Origin: Sandaracinaceae bacterium
Lineage (GTDB): Bacteria > Myxococcota_A > Polyangia > Polyangiales > Sandaracinaceae
DNA: 32,000 nucleotides
Reading direction: 5' to 3'
Assembly: GCA_019637095.1 (NCBI GenBank)
Contig: JAHBWG010000023.1
Span: 39,145-71,144 of the forward strand
A model generated the notes under the pieces. It saw only the letters and a list, made by a program, of their open reading frames with translations, searched no databases and had not been told where the DNA came from. Below, one piece after another: positions 951-29,196 of this stretch. Numbering within the stretch: the stretch's first letter is position 1; every line of letters begins with the position of its first letter. Made by a program: the position numbers and the translations under genes.

Positions 951-3515
951 TCAGCGCGGCGTGATCGCCTGGCAGACCAGGCCGAACCGCTCCAACACGT
1001 CCGGCGTACCGGTGGAGTACGCGCCGCGGATCCCGCGCGCGACGGAGCCCGCGGGGCAGTGGTGAGGGCCGAAGGGGGTCGCGGGCTCCATCACCGGCGG
1101 CGGCGGCCCATCGGCGAGCACCGAGTCGCCTGGCGTGAGCGTCAGCGTCACGCCAGGCATGGTGCGCCCGTTGGCCGTGATCACCGAGCAGTGCAGCGTC
1201 AGCGTGTCGATGACGGTGCGGCCCATGTACGTCATCTGCGACCCGCTGAACCCGGTGAGCAGCTGCCCCGTCGGGCACTCCCACGTGCCCCATCCGTCGC
1301 CGCCGCGCTCGGGGAACGTGTGGATGGGGATCCGGCGCTCGACACGGTAGCGCGGCTCCGATGTCGAGCGGTCGGGCGCGAAGCCCACCGTCCAACACTG
1401 GGTCACGAGGCCTTCGAAGAACTGCGAGCCGACCTGATCGAGCGTCAGCCAGAAGATGGCCATGTCGTCCGGGCAGACGTCCTCGAAGGCGACGCCGCTG
1501 CCGTTGCCGACCTGGGGCGTGTAGCTGGCCGACCCCGCGGTGATCCCCACCGGGACGGGGCCGCAGTCGGCGCTACACGTGTCGCCGAGCTCGCTGCCGT
1601 TGCAGCACGCGTCGGGGCACGTCGCCGAGCGCGTGCAGCTCTGCATCTCGGTGCGCATCGTCGCGCCGGTGCAGGCGCCGCCCGTGCACGCCGGCGTCGT
1701 GCAGGTCGCGCTGCGGGTGCCCATCGTCAGGTCGCAGCCCATCCCGGTGCAGGCGCCGAACGGCCCGCACGACTCCATCCCGCAGGCGGTCCCGTTGGGT
1801 CGCGTGGCGTCCGCCGGGCAGCTCGCGCTCGAGCCCGTGCACGCCTCCGCGGGGTTGCATGCGTCGCCCGCGGGGCGGCACTCCGTGCCGGCCGCGACGA
1901 AGCCATCCGTCGGGCAGCTCGTCGCGCTGCCGTTGCACACCTCGGCGACGTCGCACGCGCCGCTGACCGGCCGGCACTCGAAGCCCATCGGCCGGCGCTG
2001 GTCCGCCGGGCACGTGGTCGCGAGACCGTCGCACACCTCCGCGACGTCGCACGGTCCCGCCGCCGCGCGGCACTCGCTGCCGCCGGCGCGCACGAGGTCG
2101 CCGGGGCAGGCCGAGCCTCCGGCGCACAGCTCGGCGACGTCGCACGGCCCCGCCGCCGCGCGGCACTCGGTCCCGGGCGCCGCGAACCGGTCGGTCGGGC
2201 ACGCCGCCGCGTTGCCGGGGCAGACCTCGGCCACGTCGCAGCCGCCGCTCGCGGGGCGGCACGTCGTGCTCGCGCCGAGGAACCGATCCATCGGGCAGCT
2301 CGTCGAGGTCCCGTCGCACTGCTCCGCGACGTCGCAGGGTCCGGCCGCCGCGCGGCACGGGGTGCCGGCCGGCGCGGGCGTCGAGCCGGCGCAGGTCGGC
2401 GTCGCGGTCGAGCAGTCGATGGTCCCGCGCTCGCAAGGGCCGCGCTCGCACGAGAGGCCAGGCGTGCAGGCCACGCACGCGCCGGCGATGCAGACGCCGG
2501 CCCCGCACACCGCGCCGTCCGCGCGTGGGCGGTCGGCGGGGCACTCGGCGCTCGCGCCGGTGCAGGACTCGGCGGCGTCGCACTCGCCGCGCGCGGCGCG
2601 ACACTCGGTGCTCGCGGGCGCGAGCTCGTCGGGCGGACAGGTGGTCTCACCCGCGCACGTCTCGGCGACGTCGCACGGGCCGATCGCGGGACGGCAGACG
2701 GTGTCGCCCGGCGCCGCGCGGTCGACGACGCAGACGGGCTCCCCGTCGAGGCAGTCGATGCGCCCGATCGCGCAGACGTCGCCGACGTCGCAGGCCGCGC
2801 CTGGGACGCAGCCGCCGCCGGCGTCGAGCCCGGCGTCCGCCGTCGGCGCCCCGGCGTCGACGCCGCCGTCCGCGGCCGGCGCGCCCGCGTCGAGGCCGAG
2901 CGTCCGGCAGCCCACCTCGACGTCGCAGTACTCGCCCGCCGCGCACGCGCCCGTCGGCTCGAGCAGGCACGCGCCCTCGAGGCACGCCGCGCGTACGCAG
3001 GGGACGCGCGCCGCCGGGCAACCGGTCGGGCTCTCGCACGCGGCGACGGGGCACGCGCTCGGGTCCGCGCCGCACCGCGGATCCACGCAGCGCCCTCCGA
3101 AGCACGACGACGCCTCCGCGGCGTCGCTCGGGCCGGGGCACACCACGTCGGCGCAGGTGCGCGTGATCACGACGGTCAGCGCGTAGGAGCGCGGCGCGGC
3201 GAGGCGCACCGTCCGCTCCGCGAGGGTGGTCCCATCGGCGCGCAGCAGCTGCACGCGCACCGAGTAGTCACCACCGCTGAGGCTCGAGAGCTCCGCCACG
3301 CGCTCTCCGTCGAACCATCGCCGGCCCGCCGCGAACGCGGGCCGCTCGGCGCCGCCGAGGCGAGACCCCGTCACCGGTCCGGCGAACACGTCCGTGCGCA
3401 CCGCCGTGAACTCGACCCCGCCGACGAGGTCGGTGCGCAGGTCGACGGTCAGCGTCGAGGGCTCCTCGCACCCGAGCAGGACGAGCATCAGCGCGAGAGA
3501 CGACCGCGTCCTCAT
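951..3515 (-). CDS. Secreted Cys-rich lipoprotein with tandem disintegrin-like repeats and a C-terminal triple CP-x-G...L-x-C repeat domain
   Basis: 854-aa ORF. N-terminal 'MRTRSSLALMLVLLGC' is a signal peptide plus lipobox. There are eight copies of C-R-x-A-x-G-x-C-D-x-A-E-x-C-x-G-x-S-x-x-C-P-x-D. A DAGAP-type low-complexity linker is present. The gene is convergent with apbC. Confidence 0.85.
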   Translation of the reverse strand: MRTRSSLALMLVLLGCEEPSTLTVDLRTDLVGGVEFTAVRTDVFAGPVTGSRLGGAERPAFAAGRRWFDGERVAELSSLSGGDYSVRVQLLRADGTTLAERTVRLAAPRSYALTVVITRTCADVVCPGPSDAAEASSCFGGRCVDPRCGADPSACPVAACESPTGCPAARVPCVRAACLEGACLLEPTGACAAGEYCDVEVGCRTLGLDAGAPAADGGVDAGAPTADAGLDAGGGCVPGAACDVGDVCAIGRIDCLDGEPVCVVDRAAPGDTVCRPAIGPCDVAETCAGETTCPPDELAPASTECRAARGECDAAESCTGASAECPADRPRADGAVCGAGVCIAGACVACTPGLSCERGPCERGTIDCSTATPTCAGSTPAPAGTPCRAAAGPCDVAEQCDGTSTSCPMDRFLGASTTCRPASGGCDVAEVCPGNAAACPTDRFAAPGTECRAAAGPCDVAELCAGGSACPGDLVRAGGSECRAAAGPCDVAEVCDGLATTCPADQRRPMGFECRPVSGACDVAEVCNGSATSCPTDGFVAAGTECRPAGDACNPAEACTGSSASCPADATRPNGTACGMESCGPFGACTGMGCDLTMGTRSATCTTPACTGGACTGATMRTEMQSCTRSATCPDACCNGSELGDTCSADCGPVPVGITAGSASYTPQVGNGSGVAFEDVCPDDMAIFWLTLDQVGSQFFEGLVTQCWTVGFAPDRSTSEPRYRVERRIPIHTFPERGGDGWGTWECPTGQLLTGFSGSQMTYMGRTVIDTLTLHCSVITANGRTMPGVTLTLTPGDSVLADGPPPPVMEPATPFGPHHCPAGSVARGIRGAYSTGTPDVLERFGLVCQAITPR
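1782..2357 (-). repeat. Six tandem ~96-nt coding repeats (32-aa disintegrin-like units, aa 387-578 of the lipoprotein)
   Basis: Manual alignment of CRAAAGPCDVAEQCDGTSTSCPMDRF, CRPASGGCDVAEVCPGNAAACPTDRF, CRAAAGPCDVAELCAGGSACPGDL, CRAAAGPCDVAEVCDGLATTCPADQ, CRPVSGACDVAEVCNGSATSCPTDGF and CRPAGDACNPAEACTGSSASCPADA. Confidence 0.85.
2508..2696 (-). repeat. Two further copies of the same 32-aa Cys repeat (aa 274-336)
   Basis: CRPAIGPCDVAETCAGETTCPPDE and CRAARGECDAAESCTGASAECPADR. A different Cys-rich segment separates them from the six-copy block. Confidence 0.8.
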
Positions 3516-3566: not shown

Positions 3567-4058
3567 TCAGGCGACCATCGGGTCGGCGGGATCCTCGCCG
3601 AAGCGCAGGTGCTTCTTCCACACGCCGGTCGAGTCCTCGTAGAGATCCGAGCGGCTCGGCACGCCATCGAGCGCGACGCCCATGCGGCCCGGGCCCCGCA
3701 GCGCGCGCCAGCGCACGGCGCACGGGAACACGTACTCGCAGCCGGCCTGCGGATCCTCGACCCGCACGATCACGCGCGTGCCCACCTCCTGCGGGCGCGC
3801 GGTCAGGATCAGGAAGCCGCCGCCGGACAGGTCGCGGATCTCGCCCGACTCGAACCCGCCGGGCCGCGTGAACTGGACGGGGAGCGTCAGCTTGACGCGC
3901 GCGAACGCGCGCTGGCGCGTGTCGGGCGTCTCGCCGCGCAGCAGGCGGGCGAGGCCCATGAGCCGCACGCGTTCGGCGTCGTCGAGGACGATGTCGAGGT
4001 CTCGCTCCTTGCTCGAGAGGAGCTGGTGCTCGTAGATCATGGAGAGGAGGTTGCGCAC
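3567..4058 (-). CDS. PilZ domain protein (putative c-di-GMP receptor)
   Basis: 'RQRAFAR' (RxxxR) and 'DLSGGG' (DxSxxG) motifs. GTG start at 4058 is preceded by GGAG with a 7-nt spacer on the minus strand. An alternative ATG lies at 4040. Confidence 0.75.
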   Translation of the reverse strand: MRNLLSMIYEHQLLSSKERDLDIVLDDAERVRLMGLARLLRGETPDTRQRAFARVKLTLPVQFTRPGGFESGEIRDLSGGGFLILTARPQEVGTRVIVRVEDPQAGCEYVFPCAVRWRALRGPGRMGVALDGVPSRSDLYEDSTGVWKKHLRFGEDPADPMVA

Positions 4059-4186
4059 GGTCTTGCTCCGAAGGTTCGCAAGGATTGTTCCTTCACGGGC
4101 TCGTCGCGGATCGAAGACGTTCGAGCGCGCGGGAAGTTTCGAGGCGTGTAATCCGCCTGACAGCTAGAGTGGGCGGCCGGACACGG

Positions 4187-5500
<1,314 letters not shown>

Positions 5501-6220: not shown

Positions 6221-6251
6221 CTTCGTCTCCCGTGAACGACGGGAGACGAAG
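6221..6251. terminator. Perfect 13-bp stem / 5-nt loop hairpin between convergent genes (candidate bidirectional terminator)
   Basis: cttcgtctcccgt-gaacg-acgggagacgaag. It lies in a 151-bp gap between the 3' ends at 6168 (+) and 6320 (-). There is no U-tract on either side. Confidence 0.5.
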
Positions 6252-13302: not shown

Positions 13303-13367
13303 GGCCCCCGGTGTACCCACCGCGGGGCCGGTTGCCAATCGGAAGCTGCTCGGGATAAGCACCGGCC

Positions 13368-14732
<1,365 letters not shown>

Positions 14733-26546: not shown

Positions 26547-26912
26547 TCATCCGCGGCAGAACACGGCGACGTCGATGCGGACCGGCGTCGTCTCGCACGC
26601 GCGCACCTCGACGCGCTCGAAGCTCGTCGTGCAGTTGCCGGTCGCGTCGTCGCCGCGCACCTCCCACGTGCCGGCCTCGAGCTCCTCGCGCGCGCAGCCC
26701 TCGGGCGCGCGGATGAGGAAGGGCACGTCCGCCTCGCCGCGCCGCGCGGTGACCTCGGCGCCGGCGAGCGGGCGCTCGCTCGTCGCGTCGAGGTACACGC
26801 AGACCTCGATCACGCCGTAGCCCGGCGTGCAGCCGCCCGCGTCGCCCGGCGCGGGGCCGGTGCCCGAGCAGCCGGCGAGGAGGAGCGCGAGGAAGCCGAG
26901 GTACGCTCGCAT
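26547..26912 (-). CDS. Small lipoprotein, hypothetical
   Basis: 'MRAYLGFLALLLAGC' is a signal peptide plus lipobox. The mature domain looks beta-rich and contains 6 Cys after the lipidated Cys. ATG 26912. Confidence 0.6.
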   Translation of the reverse strand: MRAYLGFLALLLAGCSGTGPAPGDAGGCTPGYGVIEVCVYLDATSERPLAGAEVTARRGEADVPFLIRAPEGCAREELEAGTWEVRGDDATGNCTTSFERVEVRACETTPVRIDVAVFCRG

Positions 26913-26980
26913 GGCGCCCAGCATAGCCGACGCGCGCGGCTTGACCCGGGCGGCGCCGGGGCACAACGTCGAGGCAGCGC

Positions 26981-27289
26981 ATGGAACGACGCAGCAGCCC
27001 GCGGATCGATGCCGGCGTCCCCGCCGAGCTCGACGCGCCGTCCGGCAAGGGGCACGCGGGGATCCTGCAGGACGTGAGCGAGACGGGCGCGCTCTTGCTG
27101 AGCCGCGTCGAGCACCACCCGGGCGACGTCCTCACGCTGCGGTTCCGCGCCGCGGGCGCGGGCGCCGCGCTCGTCGAGCGGCGCGCGCGCGTGCTGCGCT
27201 CGGGGCCGAACGACGCCGAGTCCGTGTGGCCCGTGCGCAGCGCGCTCGAGTTCGACGAGGCGGTCCCCCTCGATCGCGACGCGCTGTAG
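26981..27289 (+). CDS. Stand-alone PilZ domain protein (putative c-di-GMP receptor)
   Basis: 'RRSSPR' (RRxxxR) and 'DVSETG' (DxSxxG). 102 aa. Confidence 0.75.
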   Translation: MERRSSPRIDAGVPAELDAPSGKGHAGILQDVSETGALLLSRVEHHPGDVLTLRFRAAGAGAALVERRARVLRSGPNDAESVWPVRSALEFDEAVPLDRDAL

Positions 27290-27295
27290 TTTGCC

Positions 27296-27602
27296 CAGGG
27301 GCGCTTCTTACCCCTGCCCCGCGGCGGCAGAGCCGCGGCGGCGCCCCCGGTCCGAACGCGGCGGAGCCGCGTTCGACCCATCGCGGGGCGATGGGGCCCC
27401 TCGACCGACGCCCGGCGCGGCGCGGCGGGCTGGTCTCGATGTCTTCGGAGGGGCTGTTCCAGCCCCTCCCCCCATCGCGGCAAAGCCGCGATGGGTCCCC
27501 CCTCCCAAGTCGAACGCGGCGAAGCCGCGTTCGACCCCATCGCGGGGCGATGGGGGCCCCTCGGCCAACGGCCATCGCTACGCGATGGCCTGGCCTCGAT
27601 GG
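27296..27602. repeat. Array of nine perfect GC-rich hairpins: two diverged ~150-bp copies of a four-hairpin module (X-Y-A-B), plus a ninth hairpin embedded in the tail of copy 2
   Basis: X1 27296-27316 CAGGGG/CCCCTG. Y1 27319-27338 CCGCGGC-ggcaga-GCCGCGG. A1 27353-27375 CGAACGCGGC-gga-GCCGCGTTCG. B1 27377-27395 CCCATCGC-ggg-GCGATGGG. X2 27447-27469 GGAGGGGCT-gttcc-AGCCCCTCC. Y2 27471-27495 CCCATCGCGGC-aaa-GCCGCGATGGG. A2 27509-27535 GTCGAACGCGGC-gaa-GCCGCGTTCGAC. B2 27536-27554 CCCATCGC-ggg-GCGATGGG. Ninth hairpin 27570-27590 GGCCATCGC-tac-GCGATGGCC. Both units end in tgg(t/c)ctcgatg. Confidence 0.85.
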
Positions 27603-27759
27603 CGCGCCCCGAGGGCGTGGGCGCGCGCCCAAACGCGCAGCGGCTCATCGACGGTGCTCGAGCCCCGCGCTCGACAGAACGGCAGGGCCGAGACCGCGAG
27701 CGACGACGGCATGGCGAGCCCGCGCCACGACCTGACGCGCTCCGCGCGCGAGGCTCGGC

Positions 27760-27775
27760 TGGCATCGCCGTTGCC
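27760..27775 (+). promoter_or_regulatory. Candidate sigma-54 (-24/-12) promoter for the downstream membrane protein gene
   Basis: TGGCATcgccgTTGCC against consensus TGGCAC-N5-TTGCW, with exact GG-N10-GC spacing. The predicted TSS (~27785) is followed by GGAGG (27793-27797) and ATG 27802. Confidence 0.45.
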
Positions 27776-27801
27776 AGACGCGTCGGGTCGACGGAGGCCC
27801 C

Positions 27802-29196
27802 ATGCAACGAGACCCCGCGCGCGCGGCGCGCGCCCTCTTCGACCGCTGGTTCATCGAGTACAACCCCCTCTTCCTCGCGAGCGCCGCGCTGGTGCTCGGC
27901 GGCACCATGCTCATCGCGCGCGAGGTCGCGCAGCACCGCACCCCGTACGGTGGCGTCTGGGTCGGCGCGCTCGCGGAGCTCTACGCGCTCGCGCTCATCG
28001 GCGGGGCGGCGGGCCTGGCGCGGCTCGGCATGACGAGACCCGCGGTCCTGCTCACGCTCATCGCGCTCGTGTTCCAGGCCGACGTGACGCTGCAAGTCGA
28101 GACCAACCCGTGGTACGGCGGCGTCGGCCTCATCGCGTCGGCGGCCTGGCTCGGGCTCTTCGCGATCAAGCTGCGCCTGATCGCCCTGGCGCTCGGCCTT
28201 CGCCTGTCGCGCTCGGCGTTCCTCGTGCCGTGCGCGGGCGCGGCCGGCCTCGCGGGCTTCCCGATCGTCCTGCGCTCGCTCGATCCGGTGAGCGGCTCGG
28301 CGCTGCTCGGCGGCTGGCTCTTCGCGCTCACGCTCGCGGCGCGCTCGACGTCGCGGCGCGTCGAGCGCGCCGGCGGGCTCGACGCGCGCGGCCTGCGGTG
28401 CGTGGACGGCGCTTGGATCGGCGGCGGGCTCGCCGTCGCGGCGCACCTCGCGATGTGGGCGCGCGAGCCGGATCTCGTCCTGCACCTCGCCCCGCTCGCG
28501 CCGGGCGTCGCCCTCGCGCTGGCGCGACGCGCGTCGCGCGAGCGTCACCTGTGGGCGGCGTCCGCCGGCGCGCTCGCGATCACCGCCGTGCTCGCGCCGC
28601 GCTTCACGTGGCTGGTCGCGCTCGAGATCGCGGCGGTGCTCGCGCTCTACGCGTGGCGGCGCCCGATGCGGTGCGGCGACGCGCCCGCGGCGATGCCGTC
28701 ATCGCCGTACCGCGCCGCCGCGGCGGAGCTCGCGACCTCGACACCCGAGCTCTCGTTCGCGCGGGCCGCAGCGCCCGCCGCGGGGCGGCTCGCGGTCGGC
28801 GTCGCGTGCGCGCTCTACGCGAGCGCGTGGCTCGCGGGCTGGCGCGGCGGCGCGCTCCCCGCGCACGCGCCGCTGCTCGACGCCGCGCTGCTGCTCGCGT
28901 GCGCGGCGCTCCTCTGGCGCGCGCGGGCGTGGCTCGCGCTCGCGCCGTGGGCGCTCGTCCCGCTCCACCTCGCGCTCGCGCGCGGGTGGGTCGGTCCTCC
29001 GAGGACGGCCCTCGAGCTCGGCGGCGCCGCGGTCGGGCTCGGCTTCGTGCTGCTCGCCACCGGGCTCGGAGCCTCGCTCTGGGCGCGGTGCCGCGGCCAC
29101 CTCGGCCCGCTCGCCGCGCCCGCGGAGCCGGTGGGTCTCGGCGAAGCGGCGGCTCACGCGAGCAGCCACGCGTCGCCGAGCTCGTGCCCGAGGTAG
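27802..29196 (+). CDS. Uncharacterised polytopic inner-membrane protein (464 aa)
   Basis: There are many Ala/Leu/Gly-rich hydrophobic segments and high GC3, and a strong GGAGG lies 4 nt upstream of the ATG. I recognise no family. The 3' end overlaps the convergent QueA-like gene by 43 nt. Confidence 0.7.
   Translation: MQRDPARAARALFDRWFIEYNPLFLASAALVLGGTMLIAREVAQHRTPYGGVWVGALAELYALALIGGAAGLARLGMTRPAVLLTLIALVFQADVTLQVETNPWYGGVGLIASAAWLGLFAIKLRLIALALGLRLSRSAFLVPCAGAAGLAGFPIVLRSLDPVSGSALLGGWLFALTLAARSTSRRVERAGGLDARGLRCVDGAWIGGGLAVAAHLAMWAREPDLVLHLAPLAPGVALALARRASRERHLWAASAGALAITAVLAPRFTWLVALEIAAVLALYAWRRPMRCGDAPAAMPSSPYRAAAAELATSTPELSFARAAAPAAGRLAVGVACALYASAWLAGWRGGALPAHAPLLDAALLLACAALLWRARAWLALAPWALVPLHLALARGWVGPPRTALELGGAAVGLGFVLLATGLGASLWARCRGHLGPLAAPAEPVGLGEAAAHASSHASPSSCPR

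What the first reader, a model, noticed from the sequence alone, without database searches (positions are those of the whole stretch)
27296..27602. Tandem pair of four-hairpin modules with stem covariation: a structured RNA or REP/BIME-like element of unknown family
In about 300 bp of the largest intergenic gap I count nine perfect hairpins with 6-12-bp stems and mostly 3-nt loops. They fall into two consecutive ~150-bp units of the same order, X-Y-A-B-tail. The A-B core (27351-27410 versus 27509-27570) is nearly identical, differing by a few substitutions and two 1-nt indels in my manual alignment. The X and Y hairpins differ in sequence between the units yet each remains perfectly self-complementary. 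X is CAGGGG/CCCCTG versus GGAGGGGCT/AGCCCCTCC, and Y is CCGCGGC/GCCGCGG versus CCCATCGCGGC/GCCGCGATGGG. That pattern is what selection on structure rather than sequence would produce. Hairpin A2 contains GCGAAGC, which is known as an exceptionally stable mini-hairpin sequence in single-stranded DNA. The hairpins share sub-motifs (ATCGCG/CGCGAT and CGCGGC/GCCGCG), as if they recombined from two stem families. I see no coding potential: all frames give repeat-driven Arg/Gly/Pro sequence. There is no adjacent RAYT-type transposase. The spacing and self-complementarity are wrong for CRISPR. Possible explanations include a REP/BIME-like dispersed element, a multi-hairpin sRNA or mRNA-stabilising 3' UTR of the PilZ gene, an upstream activating or architectural region for the sigma-54 promoter about 170 bp downstream, or a hairpin-recognised recombination or replication site.
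Basis: seen in the sequence. Interest (0 to 1): 0.75.

Follow-up and report, generated by a model that had tools for sequence, protein, structure and literature searches.

The report
Dispersed multi-hairpin repeat family in Sandaracinaceae
The hairpin cluster is real, but it is two tandem copies of a repeat that is scattered behind the stop codons of unrelated genes in Sandaracinaceae (myxobacteria), so it is a new REP/BIME-like repeat family rather than a special RNA or control site of this locus.

Summary
Window 27290-27602 holds two tandem ~155-nt units, each an ordered string of hairpins (X-Y-A-B-C-tail). It folds far better than shuffles (z = -7.8).

The element is not locus-specific. The same ordered composite occurs as 8 further units on 6 contigs of another Sandaracinaceae MAG, next to unrelated housekeeping genes. 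Five of those units are cut by contig ends.

Hairpin A's stem is identical in all but one copy. Hairpins B and C keep pairing through compensatory changes (97.7% paired against 33-44% in slid controls).

Wherever the 5' end is preserved next to a gene, module X starts 4-6 nt after the stop codon of a co-oriented gene (once ~24 nt). 3' ends often abut convergent stop codons.

Homologues of the downstream gene keep the sigma-54-like promoter but have no hairpin array. There is no Rfam match, no canonical terminator, no terminal inverted repeats, and no transposase in the window.

Best reading: a new REP/BIME-like dispersed intergenic repeat family, inserted here as a dimer behind the PilZ gene. 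How it spreads, and any effect as a 3'-UTR RNA, is inferred only.

The parts
26981..27289 (+). Context: PilZ-domain gene (102 aa). Its TAG stop (27287-27289) lies 6 nt before the first stem of the repeat.
   Evidence: Pfam PilZ E = 6.6e-10. The identical protein is on Logan contigs L001 and L002.
27290..27441 (+). Repeat unit 1, the more degenerate copy: spacer TTTGCC, modules X1-Y1-A1-B1-C1, tail TGGTCTCGATG.
   Evidence: nhmmer with the family profile E = 2e-26. CM R1 gives 85 bits for 27351-27442.
27296..27316 (+). X1 hairpin, CAGGGG/CCCCTG, 9-nt loop.
   Evidence: z = -1.9, weak.
27319..27338 (+). Y1 hairpin, CCGCGGC/GCCGCGG.
   Evidence: z = -2.4.
27353..27375 (+). A1 hairpin, CGAACGCGGC-GGA-GCCGCGTTCG. 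This is the conserved core of the family.
   Evidence: z = -4.4. The stem is identical in all but one family copy.
27377..27395 (+). B1 hairpin, CCCATCGC-GGG-GCGATGGG.
   Evidence: It covaries with CCCCACGC/GCGTGGGG and CCCCGCGC/GCGCGGGG in the other MAG.
27403..27435 (+). C1, an imperfect two-tier hairpin. The outer helix GACC/GGTC is a compensatory variant of GGCC/GGCC.
   Evidence: z = -2.4. Pair 57/87 is GC in five copies and AU in one.
27442..27602 (+). Repeat unit 2, well preserved: spacer TCTTCG, modules X2-Y2-A2-B2-C2, tail TGGCCTCGATGG.
   Evidence: nhmmer E = 8e-35. CM R1 gives 106.8 bits for 27509-27602.
27447..27469 (+). X2 hairpin, GGAGGGGCTG-TTC-CAGCCCCTCC.
   Evidence: z = -4.9.
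27471..27495 (+). Y2 hairpin, CCCATCGCGGC-AAA-GCCGCGATGGG.
   Evidence: z = -7.1.
27509..27535 (+). A2 hairpin, GTCGAACGCGGC-GAA-GCCGCGTTCGAC.
   Evidence: z = -5.3.
27535..27555 (+). B2 hairpin, CCCCATCGC-GGG-GCGATGGGG.
   Evidence: z = -4.5.
27563..27595 (+). C2 two-tier hairpin: outer GGCCA/TGGCC, inner GGCCATCGC-TAC-GCGATGGCC.
   Evidence: z = -6.0.
27761..27776 (+). Context, not part of the repeat: sigma-54-type promoter-like site TGGCAT-N5-TTGC, 26 nt upstream of the ATG at 27802.
   Evidence: Seen in the sequence. The same GGCAY-N5-TTGC lies 27-47 nt upstream of homologues of the 464-aa gene in L190, L102 and L105-L108, which have no hairpin array.

Best explanation
The 313-nt cluster is a tandem dimer of a non-coding, dispersed, modular palindromic repeat that is specific to some Sandaracinaceae (Myxococcota). 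It is functionally a REP/BIME-like element.

**Shown**
- One unit is an ordered, single-orientation string of five hairpins (X, Y, A, B, C) plus a short tail. In the other genome the tail is a longer D module.
- Units occur singly, in tandem, or with internal deletions.
- They sit in gene 3' flanks. The X end lies a few nucleotides behind a stop codon.

**Inferred**
- Copies are spread or homogenised by a trans-acting factor that recognises the conserved hairpin A. The likeliest form is single-stranded DNA recognised by a RAYT or IS200/IS605-like enzyme.
- The other stems only need to stay paired. That would explain why they covary and swap between variants.
- At this locus the dimer was inserted, or carried in together with the PilZ and 464-aa gene block, directly behind the PilZ stop codon. 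It would therefore be transcribed as the PilZ 3' UTR.
- There its very stable stem-loops would most likely block 3'-5' exonucleases. Because X starts 6 nt after the stop codon, it may also interfere with translation termination, as shown for E. coli REPs lying closer than 16 nt to a stop codon.
- It is not part of the downstream sigma-54 promoter.
For: **Dispersal**
- A pattern scan for hairpin A found six separate contigs of MAG NJ_NJASGE3bin.19 (Sandaracinaceae) among otherwise chance hits.
- Their flanks carry the same order of modules as the window.
- nhmmer and CM searches give 8 units there, with E from 1e-12 to 1e-35, and none in 1.25 Mb of other fetched loci.
- The window itself comes from a Sandaracinaceae MAG.

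**Unrelated neighbours**
- The flanking genes are a sigma-54 activator, glucokinase, YceG/MltG, APS kinase, and a Ser/Thr kinase-thioredoxin fusion.

**Repeat behaviour in assemblies**
- Five of the 8 MAG units are cut by contig ends.
- Both Logan contigs of the window's own organism stop inside A1.
- Copies within the MAG are 75-100% identical, and the closest (L059, L039b, L067, L028 unit 2) 94-100%. The window against the MAG is 69-82%.

**Structure is maintained**
- 97.7% of cells are paired, against 33-44% with the partner slid.
- Six pairs changed on both sides; 0 of 500 shuffles reach this.
- Nine of the ten A stem pairs never vary.

**Position**
- X begins 4-6 nt after the stop codon in the window, L059, L039b and L039, and ~24 nt after in L078.
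- 3' ends abut convergent stop codons in L039 and L067, and candidate convergent ORFs without Pfam support in L078 and L024.

**The array is an addition here**
- Homologues of the 464-aa gene have 150-190-nt upstream gaps. Most keep the sigma-54-like promoter, and none has the array.

**Precedent for stop-codon proximity**
- E. coli REPs closer than 16 nt to a stop codon down-regulate translation (PMC12306157).
Against: - **No enzyme.** No transposase or RAYT was found. None is among the window ORFs I scanned, and whole genomes could not be searched.
- **REP marks missing.** The REP hallmark GTAG is absent; GTAC, GTCG or TCCG precede hairpin A. The hairpins are not arranged as inverted REP doublets.
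- **Copy number unknown.** Only about 10 units were seen.
- **Absent from other searches.** There were no copies in 59 kb of three related MAGs whose SerA is 84-87% identical. A JGI metagenome pattern scan returned only chance or coding hits.
- **Dispersal in the window's own genome is indirect.** The Logan contig ends could also reflect a coverage drop at GC-rich hairpins.
- **No transcription data.**
- **Weak statistics.** The covariation rests on 7 paralogous sequences in an alignment that was fitted to the structure.
Confidence: 0.7

Rival explanations
1. The family exists mainly because it is useful as RNA. In this view it is a reusable 3'-UTR cassette that ends or protects transcripts, or tunes translation termination, in a 75% G+C genome where classical U-tract terminators are rare. 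Each copy would be kept by selection at its own gene rather than by selfish spread.
For: - The cassette has a fixed polarity, and X lies 4-6 nt behind co-oriented stop codons in four of five loci.
- Copies fill the gaps between convergent genes.
- G.U pairs occur on the sense strand: pair 60/84 is G.U in four copies, and L067 hairpin B has one. These would be A.C mismatches on the other strand.
- E. coli REPs provide a precedent (PMC12306157).
Against: - No hairpin is followed by a U tract, and no terminator-like site was found.
- Identity of 94-100% over 35-110 nt between copies behind unrelated genes, together with assembly breaks, points to recent copying rather than independent selection.
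- Truncated and internally deleted copies are tolerated.
- Both strands fold equally well.
- This rival is not exclusive of the best explanation.
Confidence: 0.25
2. It is a MITE, meaning a deletion derivative of a DDE-type insertion sequence that targets TGA or TNA sites and duplicates them. That would explain the stop-codon adjacency and the TGAG seen at both ends of some units.
For: - TGA or TAG followed by a constant 6-nt spacer precedes X in the window, L059 and L039b.
- The D tail of MAG copies ends in CTCTGAG or CTTGAG, so TGAG flanks both ends of some units.
- Element size is 150-190 nt, and there are internal deletion variants.
Against: - Comparison of the 5' end (GTYTTCGAAGGGGG) with the 3' tails shows no terminal inverted repeats (inspection).
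- Tandem head-to-tail arrays are atypical for MITEs.
- No transposase is nearby.
- The window copies lack the D tail.
Confidence: 0.08
3. It is locus-specific regulatory DNA: an upstream activating or architectural region for the sigma-54 promoter at 27761-27776, or a recombination or replication site.
For: - The array lies about 160 nt upstream of a conserved sigma-54-like promoter.
- One MAG copy follows a sigma-54 activator gene.
Against: - The same element sits between convergent genes and behind unrelated housekeeping genes.
- Homologues of the downstream gene keep the promoter but not the array.
- The 199 nt between the array and the gene already match the full length of the upstream gap in homologues.
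Confidence: 0.03
4. It is a compositional artefact: chance palindromes in very G+C-rich non-coding DNA.
For: G+C is 74.8%. Markov simulations give about 5 hairpins with a stem of at least 8 bp and a 3-nt loop per 32 kb.
Against: - Seven such hairpins fall within 240 nt.
- z is -7.8 against dinucleotide shuffles.
- The whole composite recurs in another genome with E down to 1e-35.
Confidence: 0.01

Closest known systems
E. coli BIMEs (bacterial interspersed mosaic elements, clusters of REP palindromes plus accessory motifs)
   Same: - Extragenic and dispersed.
- Built from several short G+C-rich palindromes combined in a modular, mosaic way, often in tandem.
- Located at gene 3' ends, within operons and between convergent genes.
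- Many lie within a few nucleotides of stop codons.
- Stems are kept by compensatory change.
   Different: - All hairpins here are different modules in one fixed order and one orientation. They are not alternating inverted copies of one REP.
- There is no GTAG/CTAC motif.
- The unit is long (155-190 nt).
- There is no sequence similarity, and the host is a myxobacterium.
- Binding of IHF, gyrase or Pol I is untested.
REP/RAYT systems and REPINs (Pseudomonas, Stenotrophomonas SMAG and others)
   Same: - Short hairpin-forming repeats with conserved and covarying stems.
- Dispersed in intergenic DNA.
- One strongly conserved hairpin (A) preceded by GT(A)C could play the part of the enzyme-recognised REP.
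   Different: - No RAYT gene was identified.
- The tetranucleotide is not GTAG.
- There is no inverted doublet arrangement.
- Copy number is unknown.
Pneumococcal BOX elements (boxA-boxB(n)-boxC)
   Same: - A modular intergenic repeat made of distinct sub-elements in a fixed order, with a variable number or absence of modules.
- Strong predicted secondary structure.
- No coding capacity.
   Different: - No sequence relationship.
- BOX occurs in low-G+C Firmicutes.
- BOX modules are not simple perfect hairpins.
- Stop-codon adjacency is not, to my knowledge, a described BOX feature.

Membership tests
REP/RAYT (REPIN) repeats | Short (about 20-40 nt) imperfect palindromes able to form hairpins. 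| tested here: met
   Ten hairpins of 19-35 nt.
REP/RAYT (REPIN) repeats | Tens to hundreds of extragenic copies dispersed in one genome. | tested here: inconclusive
   Eight units on 6 contigs of one MAG and 2 in the window.
REP/RAYT (REPIN) repeats | Conserved GTAG (or CTAC) tetranucleotide at the foot of the palindrome. | tested here: not met
   Hairpin A is preceded by GTAC in most MAG copies (GTTC in L039) and by GTCG or TCCG in the window. No GTAG lies next to any module.
REP/RAYT (REPIN) repeats | A cognate RAYT (Y1 transposase, PF01797) gene in the genome, usually flanked by its REPs. | not testable with these tools
   No Y1_Tnp hit among 26 window ORFs and 10 ORFs flanking MAG copies. 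The rest of the genomes could not be searched.
REP/RAYT (REPIN) repeats | REPs paired as inverted doublets (REPINs). | tested here: not met
   The modules are distinct and co-oriented. Reverse-strand CM hits are weak, at or below 31 bits.
BIME-type mosaic elements | Mosaic of palindromic units plus conserved non-palindromic motifs, with variable module content between copies. | tested here: met
   X-Y-A-B-linker-C-tail(-D). Variants lack Y (L078), X/Y (L028 unit 2) or parts of B/C (L039, L078).
BIME-type mosaic elements | Successive palindromic units in alternating orientation. | tested here: not met
   All units and modules are head-to-tail.
BIME-type mosaic elements | Extragenic location at 3' ends of genes or between convergent genes. 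| tested here: met
   Element ends lie next to stop codons at six Pfam-confirmed gene ends and next to ORF ends without Pfam support at three more; the window 3' end is the only one facing a gene start.
MITE | Terminal inverted repeats. | tested here: not met
   The 5' end GTYTTCGAAGGGGG has no inverted match in the 3' tails (inspection).
MITE | Target-site duplication flanking each copy. | tested here: inconclusive
   TGAG is seen on both sides of some MAG units. Too few complete copies and no empty sites are available.
Known structured RNA family (Rfam 15) | A match at or above a family's gathering score. | tested here: not met
   No hit at gathering thresholds in the window. Only E = 0.3-0.5 chance hits appear in evalue mode.
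Intrinsic (Rho-independent) terminator | G+C-rich hairpin followed by a U tract. | tested here: not met
   No terminator-like site in 26900-27900 on either strand.
CRISPR array | Identical direct repeats separated by unique spacers of similar length. | tested here: not met
   The repeated parts are contiguous units 152-160 nt apart with no unique spacers. The CRISPR-DR29 hit is far below threshold.
Integron attC site | A single long imperfect hairpin with R''/R' core sites (GTTRRRY), following short cassette ORFs near an integrase. | tested here: not met
   There are multiple separate perfect hairpins. Neighbours are large housekeeping genes, and no integrase is present.

The most novel reading that the evidence does not exclude
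The family could be a so far undescribed kind of mobile cassette. It would be a 155-190-nt ordered string of five or six hairpins that is placed precisely 3' of T(G/A)(A/G) stop codons with a constant 6-nt spacer. The enzyme would recognise the conserved hairpin A and would not be a classical GTAG-dependent RAYT. The transcribed form would tune translation termination and 3'-end stability of the host gene, here a c-di-GMP-related PilZ protein.
Probability: 0.15. Interest if true: 0.65.

Novelty: new member of a known kind. Interest (0 to 1): 0.35.

Why it matters
- **Literature gap.** My full-text searches found no paper describing REP-like repeats or RAYTs in Sandaracinus or other Myxococcota.
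- **Practical use.** A defined family with a consensus, a covariance model and known module structure explains why Sandaracinaceae MAGs fragment at these sites. It also stops the hairpins being mistaken for sRNAs, riboswitches or regulatory sites, and gives a marker for strain typing.
- **Biology.** The fixed polarity and the 4-6-nt distance from stop codons make the family a good test case. It could show whether REP-type elements choose stop-codon-proximal sites or are merely tolerated there, and whether they modulate expression of the upstream gene.
- **Limit.** It does not point to a new class of system.

Tried and rejected
- **Genome pattern scan.** The pattern GAACGCGGCNNNGCCGCGTTC was too permissive.
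- **Metagenome scan.** The three-anchor pattern returned 81 hits. All 80 loaded and inspected were chance or coding, and none was a family member.
- **Six-frame protein trick.** I searched concatenated six-frame translations of the repeat against the protein database, hoping to catch spurious ORFs called over other copies. Nothing was found.
- **Other collections.** Viral contigs gave 0 hits and plasmids gave no match.
- **Orthologous locus via the 464-aa protein.** The closest relatives are at most 47% identical and not syntenic.
- **Orthologous locus via SerA.** Relatives that are 84-87% identical keep NUDIX, SerA and the 125-aa gene. Two of the three (L192, L194) also keep QueA next, and all three lack PilZ, the array and the 464-aa gene. 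No filled-versus-empty comparison of the exact site was therefore possible.
- **Source contig.** Look-ups of the NCBI source contig failed, so the window could not be extended.
- **Tandem Repeats Finder.** It does not detect the 158-nt period.
- **Readings rejected.** I rejected CRISPR, attC, intrinsic terminator, a known Rfam RNA, a sigma-54 upstream activating site, and a coding repeat. The coding reading fails because the flanking genes end at the element boundary.
Full report
**1. What is in the sequence**

The window has 74.8% G+C. The PilZ-domain gene occupies 26981-27289 (Pfam E = 6.6e-10). A 464-aa ORF of unknown family starts at 27802. Between them lies a 512-nt gap, and its first 313 nt (27290-27602) consist almost entirely of stem-loops.

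There is also a tenth, imperfect two-tier hairpin (C1, 27403-27435) that is homologous to C2 (27563-27595).

- The region folds at -228.4 kcal/mol against -186.3 +/- 5.4 for dinucleotide shuffles (z = -7.8). The opposite strand gives z = -7.2.
- Seven of the nine perfect hairpins in the 32-kb window with a stem of at least 8 bp and a 3-nt loop fall within 240 nt here. Markov simulations give about 5 per 32 kb.
- Matching segments recur at 152-160 nt. This defines two head-to-tail units, 27290-27441 and 27442-27602, that are 77% identical overall and 96% identical in the A and B hairpins.
- Tandem Repeats Finder misses the pair because it is too diverged.

Unit 1 is the more degenerate copy; X1, Y1 and C1 have z of only -1.9 to -2.4.

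**2. It is a dispersed family, not a property of this locus**

A scan of one genome per species for hairpin A (GAACGCGGC-N3-GCCGCGTTC) mostly returned chance matches. However, six different contigs came from one MAG, 'Sandaracinaceae bacterium NJ_NJASGE3bin.19'.

Their flanks show the same ordered composite as the window:
- X, a G-run/C-run hairpin
- Y
- a C-rich spacer
- A
- B
- the linker GGCCCCTCGGCCNACGGCC
- C
- the tail TGGCCTCGAT, in that MAG often followed by a D tail, CGATTYATCGACACCCTCTGAG

A profile built from nine units finds 8 units in the MAG loci, with E from 1e-12 to 1e-35. These include a tandem pair (L028) and a second copy on L039. The profile finds nothing comparable in 1.25 Mb of other fetched DNA.

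The window itself comes from another Sandaracinaceae MAG. The 464-aa protein is annotated KF729_14180.

The neighbours of the MAG copies are unrelated housekeeping or regulatory genes: a sigma-54 activator, glucokinase, YceG/MltG, APS kinase, and a Ser/Thr kinase-thioredoxin fusion.

Five of the eight MAG units are cut by contig ends. The two Logan contigs that carry the identical PilZ gene both stop inside hairpin A1. That is the usual behaviour of multi-copy repeats in short-read assemblies, although loss of coverage at G+C-rich hairpins could contribute.

Copies within the MAG are 75-100% identical, and the closest (L059, L039b, L067, L028 unit 2) 94-100%. The window against the MAG is 69-82%.

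**3. Structure is maintained**

I used a structure-guided alignment of the seven copies that keep A, B and C (A4, from model R1).
- 97.7% of cells are standard pairs, against 33-44% when the partner is slid by 1-3 columns.
- Six pairs show changes on both sides. No shuffle out of 500 reaches the observed covariation.
- Nine of the ten hairpin A stem pairs never vary.
- B switches between ATCGC/GCGAT (window), ACGC/GCGT and GCGC/GCGC (MAG).
- C switches between CATCGC/GCGATG, CGGCGC/GCGCCG and GTCGC/GCGAC.
- The outer helix of C has a GACC/GGTC variant in window unit 1.
- X and Y exist as different, internally complementary variants, and some copies lack whole modules.

The X/Y 'covariation' between the two window units is therefore better described as different module variants placed in tandem than as slow in-place compensation.

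Caveats: there are only seven sequences, they are paralogues, and the alignment was fitted to the structure.

A few G.U pairs on the sense strand weakly favour the sense strand as the folded one. These are pair 60/84 in four copies and the L067 B stem.

The GCGAAGC mini-hairpin motif occurs in one copy only, so it is incidental.

**4. Position**

Where the 5' end is intact, X starts a few nucleotides after the stop codon of a co-oriented gene.

| Locus | Upstream gene | Stop codon and spacer before the X stem |
|---|---|---|
| Window | PilZ | TAG + TTTGCC |
| L059 | sigma-54 activator | TGA + GTTTTC |
| L039b | glucokinase | TGA + GTCTTC |
| L039 | YceG | TGA + TCTC |
| L078 | ORF without a Pfam match | TGA + a 17-nt extra hairpin + GGTCTTC (~24 nt) |

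3' ends touch convergent stop codons in L039 (APS kinase) and L067. In L078 and L024 they lie next to candidate convergent ORFs that have no Pfam match. In L039 the element fills the whole 145-nt gap.

In all, element ends lie next to stop codons at six Pfam-confirmed gene ends and next to ORF ends without Pfam support at three more; the window 3' end is the only one facing a gene start.

No hairpin has a U tract, and no terminator-like or sigma-70-like site is predicted.

**5. Relation to the neighbouring genes**

The sigma-54-type site TGGCAT-N5-TTGC at 27761-27776 is conserved 27-47 nt upstream of homologues of the 464-aa gene in four of five distinct relatives. Their upstream gaps are only 150-190 nt and contain no hairpin array. 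The 199 nt between the array and the ATG therefore already make up a complete promoter region, and the array is an addition behind PilZ.

In three related Sandaracinaceae MAGs (SerA 84-87% identical), NUDIX, SerA and the 125-aa gene are followed by a 75-aa gene; in two of them (L192, L194) QueA comes next. The window instead has about 2.26 kb, holding PilZ, the array and the 464-aa gene, in place of the 75-aa gene. No orthologous PilZ 3' flank exists for comparison. Those 59 kb of relatives hold no family copy.

**6. What it is and how it probably works**

*Shown:* it is a lineage-restricted, dispersed, modular, non-coding palindromic repeat that sits in gene 3' flanks. It is present here as a dimer.

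*Inferred:*
- One conserved hairpin (A) among covarying hairpins is the pattern expected if A is recognised in a sequence-specific way by a protein, while the other stems need only fold. The best precedent is REP recognition by RAYT or IS200/IS605-type enzymes acting on single-stranded DNA.
- Because the element directly follows PilZ in the same orientation, it is expected to be the PilZ 3' UTR. Its -10 to -17 kcal/mol stem-loops should hinder 3'-5' exonucleases.
- A stem that starts 6 nt after the stop codon is within the distance (less than 16 nt) at which E. coli REPs reduce translation of the upstream gene (PMC12306157).

None of these functional steps could be tested here.

**7. Comparison with known families**

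It works like E. coli BIME/REP clusters and, in its modular build, like pneumococcal BOX elements. It cannot be filed as a REP/RAYT member:
- the GTAG motif and the inverted-doublet arrangement were tested and not met;
- no RAYT could be looked for beyond the 36 ORFs I scanned.

There are no terminal inverted repeats, which argues against a MITE. TGAG on both sides of some units leaves a target-duplication question open. There is no Rfam match. CRISPR, attC and terminator definitions are not met.

**8. Novelty and score**

Full-text searches found no description of such repeats, or of RAYTs, in Sandaracinus or Myxococcota. That is absence in the held library, not proof.

It is a new family of a well-known kind of element. 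The mildly unusual features are the fixed order of five different hairpins, the single polarity, and the constant short distance from stop codons. Interest is 0.35.

The most novel reading still open is a stop-codon-targeting hairpin cassette moved by a non-classical enzyme that modulates the upstream gene. I give it about 15%.

Noticed in passing
window ~26889-29151, compared with L192:11431-12066 and L194:9885-10515: In two related Sandaracinaceae MAGs (SerA 84-86% identical) a 75-aa gene sits between the 125-aa gene and QueA. The window lacks that gene and instead carries about 2.26 kb holding PilZ, the hairpin array and the 464-aa gene. This is a lineage-specific block in an otherwise syntenic region.
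   Followed up: partly
window 27761-27776; L190:609-624; L102, L105-L108 upstream of the homologous genes: A sigma-54-type promoter-like site (GGCAY-N5-TTGC) is conserved 27-47 nt upstream of homologues of the uncharacterised 464-aa protein in four of five distinct relatives. This suggests a sigma-54-dependent gene family with no Pfam domain.
   Followed up: partly
window 951-3515 (-): An 854-aa ORF has five matches to the Disintegrin domain (PF00200, E = 2.9e-29). This domain is mostly known from animal ADAM and snake-venom proteins and is unusual in bacteria.
   Followed up: no
window 1128-1158, 6221-6251, 28337-28372: Three other long perfect hairpins (11-, 13- and 14-bp stems) are unrelated in sequence to the repeat family. 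The last one lies inside the 464-aa ORF.
   Followed up: no
L028:60-115, L078 (minus strand) ~5190-5250, L059:4446-4460, L039:5920-5935: In the other MAG the unit carries an extra D tail (CGATTYATCGACACCCTCTGAG). TGAG is found both just before module X and at the end of D. It may be a target site or a duplication, but too few complete copies are available to decide.
   Followed up: partly
L001:8581-8667 and L002:1352-1433 (equivalent to window 27290-27376): Two independent Logan assemblies (SRR29149422 and SRR29149423) of the same organism both break inside hairpin A1. This is consistent with further copies in that genome or with a loss of coverage at the hairpins.
   Followed up: partly
window 3567-4163 (-) and 13359-14732 (+): The window also holds a second PilZ-domain ORF and an NtrC-type sigma-54 activator (receiver, AAA+ and HTH_8 domains). 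No link to the repeat was found.
   Followed up: no
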